Source: Octopus sinensis (taxonomy: Eukaryota). Taken from it: a stretch of 13,195 nucleotides of DNA. Both the position numbers and the translations under genes were made by a program. The notes below the pieces were generated by a model, which was given only the letters and a program-made list of their open reading frames with translations, made no database searches and was not told the origin of the DNA. Positions 8,722 through 9,224 of the stretch are shown here, one piece after another. Positions within the stretch are counted from its first letter, which is position 1. Every line of letters begins with the position of its first letter. The DNA is taken from assembly GCF_006345805.1 (NCBI RefSeq), contig NW_021826313.1, forward strand, positions 1 through 13,195, read 5' to 3'.

Positions 8722-8865
8722 AGGGATGAAATTAAAATAATAGACAGAGAACACCACTGGAAAATACGAAAACTTAAAGAAGCAACGCATATCCTAGGAC
8801 GCAATAACCTCCTAAGCAGACCGATTGCAGATATGACGGAGTCAGCTTTCACACATTTCCTTTGA
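8722..8865 (+). pseudogene. C-terminal remnant of a Penelope-like element GIY-YIG endonuclease
   Basis: Translation DEIKIIDREHHWKIRKLKEATHILGRNNLLSR fits the C-terminal pattern of PLE GIY-YIG domains (kIl.rE....R..kEa.hI......lnr, with the conserved Glu in KLKEA). No GIY/YIG N-terminus or RT upstream. A hammerhead motif follows directly, as is known for PLEs. Confidence 0.72.
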
Positions 8866-8968
8866 TGGGCATCTCCATCTAGCAAGCCATACTACTCCAG
8901 ACTGAGGACGAGCAATGACTCAGAAACTAGTCTCTGGTTGCTAGCTTAGCTGGGTGGAGGTGCTTATC
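8864..8968 (+). ncRNA. Type I hammerhead ribozyme motif
   Basis: Stem I CCAGA(8897-8901)/TCTGG(8933-8937); core CTGAGGA (8902-8908); stem II cGAG-caatga-CTCa (8909-8922); GAAA (8923-8926); minimal palindromic stem III ACTAGT (8926-8931); GUC cleavage triplet ending at 8932. Stem I continues past an internal loop with AAGC/GCTT and a 20-bp helix 8864-8883/8949-8968. Confidence 0.85.
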
Positions 8969-9224
8969 TCCCCCTTTGTAAACATAAGGATACAGGAAAT
9001 GTGTCAAGGCTGACAGAAAGCGGTGCTGATTCCTAGGGTTAAATACCAGTAGTATTATCCCCTTCGTGGGACTATCACATTAAGTTGAGAGAATACAACT
9101 ACTTTATCGTATCACTGCTGCATAAATCTCTCTGAGAGATTTAGAAATATATTATTTAAATTTCAAGAATTTAACCAAACAGCATCATTAAAATAACCCC
9201 AAAACGCAACTATTGCAGCGAACA

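What the first reader, a model, noticed from the sequence alone, without database searches (positions are those of the whole stretch)
8841..9014. ~175-nt rod-like RNA fold carrying the hammerhead at its tip (retrozyme / PLE pseudo-LTR-like unit)
Seen: two long nested helices enclose the ribozyme. 8864-8883 (GATGGGCATCTCCATCTAGC) pairs at all 20 positions with 8949-8968 (GCTGGGTGGAGGTGCTTATC) using five G-U pairs. 8841-8861 (GTCAGCTTTCACACATTTCCT) pairs at 20 of 21 positions with 8994-9014 (AGGAAATGTGTCAAGGCTGAC) with one G-U and one C-C. A possible small side hairpin lies at about 8973-8989. Six of seven deviations from a perfect DNA inverted repeat are G-U on the + strand, which argues for selection on an RNA fold on the same strand as the hammerhead. 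Inference: this is the terminal repeat of a Penelope-like element or a monomer of a retrozyme-like family that could yield small circular RNAs. I do not know whether this family has been described.
Basis: partly seen in the sequence, partly recalled or inferred. Interest (0 to 1): 0.75.

Follow-up and report, generated by a model that had tools for sequence, protein, structure and literature searches.

The report
Truncated hammerhead retrozyme with flipped piece

Summary
Both helices exist as described; the + strand folds better than shuffles and the - strand (z -7.2 vs -4.9). The 174-nt rod is not the unit. 8864-9157 is a 5'-truncated, 6%-decayed copy of a 351-nt ORF-less repeat (2,784 first-look candidates) with a type I hammerhead motif. 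The inner helix belongs to the family. The outer helix does not: its 5' arm is an inverted copy of the element's own sequence, and the junction occurs once in the genome. 42 of 86 loci carry such inversions, with scattered breakpoints. The family has a different outer helix, whose 5' arm is lost here; it shows compensatory changes between subfamilies. So the rod idea holds for the family, with other coordinates. Two fixed 3' ends 54 nt apart, inverted arms and AT-rich targets match published Penelope-like insertions. Verdict: new member of the metazoan non-LTR retrozymes. Cleavage, expression, circles and the driver enzyme are untested. The scan reported similar families on other DNA of this genome.

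The parts
8723..8836 (+). Fragment of a different repeat (family B): the C-terminal part of the ORF of a Penelope-like retrotransposon, abutting the 5' end of the insertion
   Evidence: 1,565 first-look candidates, 91-94% identical; translation; upstream ORF pieces in locus L039 hit Pfam RVT_1, E 2.8e-10. The GIY-YIG label is recalled from motifs; Pfam, NCBIfam, PDB and PHROGs gave no confirming hit.
8841..8864 (-). Private inverted copy of monomer positions 181-204 (window about 8991-9014).
   Evidence: 87.5% over 24 nt to the subfamily majority; junction pattern matches only here; absent from 29 other loci
8864..9157 (+). 5'-truncated forward copy (monomer 55-347 of 351) of family A, subfamily A1b, with one hammerhead
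   Evidence: 18 substitutions in 293 aligned bases against the subfamily majority
8864..8883 (+). 5' arm of the inner helix (native extension of hammerhead helix I)
   Evidence: 92% of cells paired in the outer part, helix 2; 74% in helix 3, where two pairs are open in the A2 subfamilies
8897..8937 (+). Type I hammerhead motif: helix I 8897-8901/8933-8937; core CUGAGGA 8902-8908; helix II 8910-8912/8919-8921 on a C8909-A8922 mismatch, loop CAAUGA; GAAA 8923-8926; 2-bp helix III inside palindrome ACUAGU 8926-8931; predicted cleavage after C8932
   Evidence: Sequence; all 12 core letters kept in 54 of 64 copies; base of helix II is C-A in A1 and U-U in A2. Position numbering follows the standard hammerhead scheme (recalled).
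8949..8968 (+). 3' arm of the inner helix
8973..8986 (+). Orphaned 3' arm of the family's native 13-bp outer helix; its 5' partner (about monomer 38-50) is missing from this copy
   Evidence: helix 1: 13 pairs, 91.9% of cells paired, 3 pairs with changes on both sides
9108..9157 (+). 54-nt-class 'tail' between the two fixed 3' ends of the family (monomer about 297 and 351); this copy ends at the long end
   Evidence: 77 of 86 forward runs end at one of the two points

Best explanation
The locus is a 5'-truncated, decayed insertion of a 351-nt non-coding, hammerhead-bearing repeat (a non-LTR retrozyme), likely copied into the genome by the reverse transcriptase-endonuclease of a Penelope-like element, and the outer helix is an inverted piece likely added during that insertion. 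Shown: unit length, no long ORF, four subfamily groups, a conserved rod of about 139 nt with compensatory changes and the hammerhead at its tip, two fixed 3' ends, inverted 5' arms, partial tandems and dimers, AT-rich targets with duplications. Inferred: tandem copies are transcribed; the ribozyme, weakened by a 2-bp helix III and a mismatched base of helix II, would cut mainly as a dimer through the ACUAGU palindrome; released monomers would be ligated to circles by a host ligase. A borrowed PLE protein would nick AT-rich DNA on both strands and start reverse transcription at two internal sites 54 nt apart, giving forward and inverted arms. This particular copy has one ribozyme, damaged stems and no native outer helix, and is probably dead.
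For: Unit 351 nt (345 nt in A2b). Longest stop-free frame on + is 34-57 codons. Family size: 2,784 first-look candidates; 471 and 528 exact motif matches with 0 control matches. Rod: in 64 copies 90.7% of cells pair over 51 named pairs, against 32-43% when slid; 61 cells changed on both sides against 33.4 +/- 4.3 shuffled. Subfamily majorities differ at 10 of 51 pairs: 2 are compensatory, 4 change one side and keep pairing, 4 break. Pair 24/161 takes a third state, G-C, in 5 of 24 A1a copies (Fisher p 0.003). Circular fold of subfamily majorities: z about -10 on + and -6 to -7 on -. Insertions: 42 of 86 loci have an inverted arm; 77 of 86 forward runs end at one of two points; of 23 two-armed loci with both arms at a fixed end, 22 use opposite ends; several carry 8-14 bp target duplications or (TA)n flanks; 32 of 86 forward runs exceed 360 nt. 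Dimers with two hammerheads: L134, L135. Inverted 5' arms and tails are described for PLEs (PMC8557442, passages); two internal start sites bound the tail (PMC11167929, abstract and passages). A U-U mismatch at the base of helix II is compatible with dimer cleavage in axolotl HHR_Amex2 (PMC7229834).
Against: No cleavage, expression or circle data could be obtained. Rfam finds no hammerhead. The nearest-neighbour model gives an open-core hammerhead fold only 0.4-0.7% weight in subfamily majorities and 0.01% in this copy; it ignores tertiary contacts. Covariation rests on few events counted many times through kinship: pairs with two-sided change (9 vs 7.9, 172 of 500 shuffles) and further pair types (358 of 500) do not beat shuffles; pair 36/147 linkage is not significant (p 0.22). 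RNAalifold did not recover the rod from the decayed copies. Long arrays typical of coral retrozymes were not seen; the longest forward run in 86 loci was 665 nt. In the one reconstituted PLE, uncleaved RNA is the main template (PMC11167929), so circles are not required. Only 1 of 9 Xenopus retrozyme dimers cleaved in vitro (10.64898/2026.07.22.740005). The driver PLE was not identified.
Confidence: 0.8

Rival explanations
1. Same family and same PLE mobilisation, but the template is an uncleaved linear multimer transcript; the hammerhead is weak or vestigial and no circular RNA is made. This rival concerns only the RNA step of the best explanation.
For: Mismatch at the base of helix II in all four subfamily groups; low predicted weight of the active fold; few dimers; uncleaved RNA is the dominant substrate for the Anolis PLE (PMC11167929). 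No forward run in the 30 loci picked by a 3' motif starts at the cleavage site, which fits uncleaved RNA as well as circles.
Against: Core letters are unchanged between subfamily majorities that are 85-87% identical, and the loop and bulge letters around the core are largely kept. Related mussel and axolotl units of 330-390 nt do form circles (PMC7229834).
Confidence: 0.3
2. The 351-nt unit is the pseudo-LTR of an autonomous Penelope-like element, and these copies are merely its 5'-truncated insertions.
For: Tails, inverted arms and partial tandems are PLE features (PMC8557442). A PLE ORF fragment lies directly upstream in the window.
Against: That fragment belongs to family B, whose own terminal repeat has a different, minimal hammerhead and no BLAST match to family A. 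Runs longer than one unit wrap from monomer 351 to 1 with no ORF between. tblastn with family-B frames finds no ORF joined to family A in 85 other loci or in 32 further loci, some overlapping the first set. Limits: flanks were 1.5 kb and only one PLE probe was used.
Confidence: 0.12
3. One reading: the 174-nt two-helix rod, including 8841-8861, is itself a selected RNA structure.
For: z -7.19 on +; the outer arm pairs at 20 of 21 positions.
Against: The junction is unique. The arm is the reverse complement of the element's own positions 181-204. Two changes in 21 nt fit the copy's 6% decay (p 0.37). Inversion breakpoints in 42 loci scatter from monomer 31 to 318.
Confidence: 0.03

Closest known systems
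Metazoan non-LTR retrozymes (coral, mussel, axolotl; Cervera and de la Pena 2020, PMC7229834, parts 2-4 of 6 and passages read; Li, Clavereau, Pollet 2026, bioRxiv 10.64898/2026.07.22.740005, parts 1-3 of 5 read)
   Same: Non-coding unit of 345-351 nt (mussel 350-390, axolotl 330-350), GC 41-42%, type I hammerhead with 2-bp palindromic helix III, highly self-paired predicted circle, tandem and monomer copies, long target duplications, PLEs in the same genome. The mismatch at the base of helix II recalls HHR_Amex2 (U-U).
   Different: In the loci examined, mostly monomers and 1.1-1.9-unit runs with inverted arms rather than long arrays. C-A at the base of helix II in the A1 subfamilies. Helix I is extended into a rod of about 50 bp. 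No RNA or cleavage data. This copy has one ribozyme, so it fails the 'active' criterion of Li et al. (two consecutive units).
Pseudo-LTRs of endonuclease-positive Penelope-like elements (Cervera and de la Pena 2014, PMC4209133, parts 1-2 of 4 read; Craig et al. 2021, PMC8557442, passages; Frangieh et al. 2024, PMC11167929, abstract and passages)
   Same: 5' truncation, partial tandem, inverted 5' arm, a tail at one end only, two fixed 3' ends, AT-rich or (TA)n targets, hammerhead motif.
   Different: No ORF attached in the loci examined. The hammerhead has a short helix II and a long interrupted helix I (canonical type), not the minimal PLE type with a 7-8 bp helix II. The tail is 54 nt, against the 30-40 bp described.

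Membership tests
Type I hammerhead ribozyme | Core CUGANGA, GAAA and UH with three helices, helix I open | tested here: met
   8897-8937; 54 of 64 copies keep all 12 core letters
Type I hammerhead ribozyme | Paired G10.1-C11.1 directly closing helix II | tested here: inconclusive
   A G-C pair is present but sits one position out, on a C-A (A1) or U-U (A2) mismatch. U-U at this place is published for a cleaving axolotl motif (PMC7229834). Rfam models give no hit.
Type I hammerhead ribozyme | Self-cleavage after C17 | not testable with these tools
   Needs in vitro transcription; folding estimates only
Metazoan non-LTR retrozyme | Non-coding repeat unit of about 150-450 nt with a type I hammerhead | tested here: met
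   351/345 nt; longest stop-free frame on + 34-57 codons
Metazoan non-LTR retrozyme | Head-to-tail tandem copies with two or more ribozymes | tested here: met
   Met by the family (L134, L135, L077), not by this window's copy
Metazoan non-LTR retrozyme | Highly self-paired monomer on the ribozyme strand | tested here: met
   Circular fold 66-68% paired in A1a and A1b, z about -10 on +; compensatory pairs
Metazoan non-LTR retrozyme | Dispersed copies with target-site duplications longer than 4 bp | tested here: met
   For example 13 bp in L030 and L058, 14 bp in L080; 26 of 42 two-armed loci show a shared word of 6 nt or more, some of them plain TA repeats. None clear for the window.
Metazoan non-LTR retrozyme | Expression as linear and circular monomer RNA | not testable with these tools
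   Could not be tested with the runs on offer
Autonomous Penelope-like element (pseudo-LTR) | Repeat flanks an RT plus GIY-YIG ORF | tested here: not met
   No family-B-like ORF joined to family A in the loci examined, apart from the 114-nt unrelated fragment in the window; one probe, 1.5-kb flanks
Penelope-type insertion footprint | Inverted 5' arm, partial tandem, tail at one end | tested here: met
   42 of 86 inverted; 22 of 23 two-armed loci with both arms at fixed ends use opposite ends

The most novel reading that the evidence does not exclude
The window records one chimeric insertion: the reverse transcriptase of PLE family B copied the retrozyme RNA, made a short inverted piece, and then jumped to its own mRNA. 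That would name family B as the enzyme donor for a retrozyme whose ribozyme is held in check by a mismatched helix II base kept in all four subfamily groups. Family B abuts the 5' end of family A in 2 of 86 loci (window, L099), but no clean target duplication spans either composite, the two families share no terminal sequence, and shared AT-rich targets or a later deletion explain it as well.
Probability: 0.15. Interest if true: 0.45.

Novelty: new member of a known kind. Interest (0 to 1): 0.2.

Why it matters
It adds one more retrozyme family to a known class and shows a trap: Penelope-type 5' inversions create near-perfect hairpins at single loci that look like selected RNA structure. The family itself offers real covariation for a long rod around a hammerhead with a mismatched helix II base, and clean insertion footprints. 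These could help test how retrozymes borrow PLE enzymes, which the papers read leave open. Younger families in this genome, noted by the scan earlier, are better material than this decayed copy.

Tried and rejected
Rfam: no hammerhead family hit on the window or on 8830-9170. RNAalifold on 64 decayed copies gave only short local stems (-4.19 kcal/mol); I put this down to neutral decay of single copies and used named-pair counts instead. Sequencing runs: no RNA holder listed; the one run of unknown kind was laid as contigs and shows only that both repeat families are present. The GIY-YIG identity of the family B fragment was not confirmed by Pfam, NCBIfam, PDB or PHROGs; the protein atlas gave no result. 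ARAGORN found no tRNA in 8 loci with family B's tRNA-like stretch. No convincing target duplication around the window composite. No pile-up of 5' ends at the cleavage site in the 30 loci picked by a 3' motif; this does not separate circles from uncleaved RNA. Searches failed to cut the A2a monomer, so A2 folds use A2b only, and the architecture count was redone for all 86 loci. A sequence look-up of earlier findings returned nothing. Paper searches for octopus plus hammerhead listed no description of this family; Repbase and Dfam were not available, and supplements were not read, so it may already be catalogued.

Full report
1. Observation. The two helices are in the sequence as written: 20 of 20 pairs with five G-U, and 20 of 21 with one G-U and one C-C. 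8841-9014 folds at -77.0 kcal/mol (z -7.19) on + and -67.4 (z -4.89) on -. Between the arms lies a type I hammerhead motif: helix I 8897-8901/8933-8937, core 8902-8908, a 3-bp helix II on a C-A mismatch, GAAA, and a 2-bp helix III inside the palindrome ACUAGU, with cleavage predicted after 8932 (numbering recalled). Rfam does not score it. The window is otherwise microsatellites and a 15-bp minisatellite. The genome is 2.7 Gb; earlier scan notes call it octopus, which I did not test.

2. The unit. A search of the own genome gave 2,784 first-look candidates, 40 scored; matches begin at window 8863-8864 or later and never include the outer 5' arm. Partial tandems define a unit of 351 nt. I collected 90 loci from three searches and dropped 4 duplicates, leaving 86; all were picked for similarity to the ribozyme region, so they are not a random sample. 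They fall into four groups that I drew by eye from a clustering, 85-96% identical to each other, with copies about 5-6% from their group majority; 10 loci were left unassigned. The window copy covers monomer 55-347, belongs to group A1b and differs from its majority at 18 of 293 aligned bases. The longest stop-free frame on + is 34-57 codons.

3. The outer helix is a private inversion. 8841-8864 is the reverse complement of monomer 181-204 (87.5%). A pattern across its junction matches once in the genome, here. 42 of 86 loci carry an adjacent inverted arm, with inner breakpoints from monomer 31 to 318 (the window's own short arm fell below that threshold and is not among the 42). Two changes in 21 nt fit 6% decay (p 0.37). 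Of the six G-U pairs, three are the family state, two differ from the subfamily majority and one is a transition in the inverted arm.

4. The family has its own rod. On the 64 of 86 loci that span it, 90.7% of cells pair over 51 named pairs, against 32-43% with slid partners; 61 cells change on both sides against 33.4 +/- 4.3 in shuffles. The pairs were named from the fold of the group majorities and kin share changes, so these figures lean towards the structure; the two measures that count pairs or pair types do not beat shuffles (172 and 358 of 500). At group level 10 of 51 pairs differ: two are compensatory (A-U to U-A, G-C to A-U), four change one side and stay paired, four break; one of the four is a bulge shift by my reading. 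One pair takes a third state, G-C, in 5 of 24 A1a copies (p 0.003); another is not significant (p 0.22). Real copies fold much better on + than on - (-64.5 vs -48.1; -53.3 vs -38.8), and circular majorities give z about -10 against -6 to -7. RNAalifold failed on the decayed copies. I conclude that the rod was selected as RNA on the ribozyme strand in the source elements, on the strength of a few independent events.

5. Insertion footprint. 77 of 86 forward runs end at monomer about 297 or 351. Of 23 two-armed loci with both arms at a fixed end, 22 use opposite ends; the other 19 two-armed loci have at least one arm ending elsewhere. Flanks are AT-rich or (TA)n and several show 8-14 bp duplications. 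32 of 86 runs exceed 360 nt, and dimers with two ribozymes exist. I tallied the paired ends after an earlier scan note raised the idea. These features are published for Penelope-like elements: inverted 5' copy and one-sided tail (PMC8557442, passages), and two internal start sites that bound the tail, with both target strands cut and extended (PMC11167929, abstract and passages).

6. Neighbour. 8723-8836 is a piece of another repeat, family B, whose longer copies carry RT (RVT_1), a C-terminal domain that I read from recalled motifs as a PLE GIY-YIG endonuclease (no profile hit), and a terminal repeat with a minimal hammerhead. It shares no sequence with family A. Family B abuts a family A 5' end in 2 of 86 loci; whether by template jump, shared targets or deletion is open.

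7. Mechanism. Shown: anatomy, conservation, footprint. Inferred from PMC7229834 (parts 2-4 read) and PMC4209133 (parts 1-2): multimer transcripts self-cleave as dimers through the palindrome (duplex -6.2 kcal/mol), monomers are ligated to circles, and a PLE protein copies them by target-primed reverse transcription. The mismatch at the base of helix II (C-A in A1, U-U in A2) has a precedent in axolotl HHR_Amex2, which cleaves weakly alone and better as a dimer. Against the circle step: the active fold has low predicted weight, and the Anolis PLE uses uncleaved RNA. This copy is probably inactive: one ribozyme, two G-to-A changes in distal helix I (8891, 8943), G8906 favouring a CUGAG/CUCAG misfold, and loss of the native outer helix.

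8. Comparison and verdict. It works like, and by the testable features is filed under, the metazoan non-LTR retrozymes; cleavage and expression were not testable. It is not shown to be the pseudo-LTR of an autonomous element. A 2026 preprint already argues that animal retrozymes derive from PLEs (10.64898/2026.07.22.740005, parts 1-3 read). Two searches for octopus plus hammerhead listed no description of this family (listings only); repeat databases and supplements were not seen. The scan noted many similar families in this genome, none matching by sequence. New member of a known kind; interest 0.2.

Noticed in passing
L032-L042 (family B terminal repeat, e.g. L033 about 1700-1990): The terminal repeat of PLE family B holds a tRNA-like stretch followed by an (AAT)n run and a minimal hammerhead with an unpaired A after the core. 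ARAGORN finds no tRNA.
   Followed up: partly
window 8723-8864 and L099 (oriented 987-1502): Family B pieces abut the 5' end of a family A copy in 2 of 86 loci; no clean target duplication spans them.
   Followed up: partly
L132, L133: A tandem array of about 125-nt units derived from family A monomer 198-321, lacking the hammerhead.
   Followed up: no
L053, L065: The inverted arm appears to replace the 5' arm of the native rod with a copy of the 3' arm, giving a near-perfect fold-back; the rod may promote template switches.
   Followed up: no
L037 about 2000-2500: An unrelated two-armed repeat around a (TA)n run whose end resembles the 3' end of family A by eye; BLAST gave no match.
   Followed up: partly
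window 5158-8086: 15-bp minisatellite, 195 copies, 97% matches.
   Followed up: no
window 10966-11043: Hairpin with a (TA)n centre that scores weakly, far below gathering, to several miRNA models; probably part of an interspersed repeat, since similar translations occur near 4700-4950 and 10830-11070.
   Followed up: no
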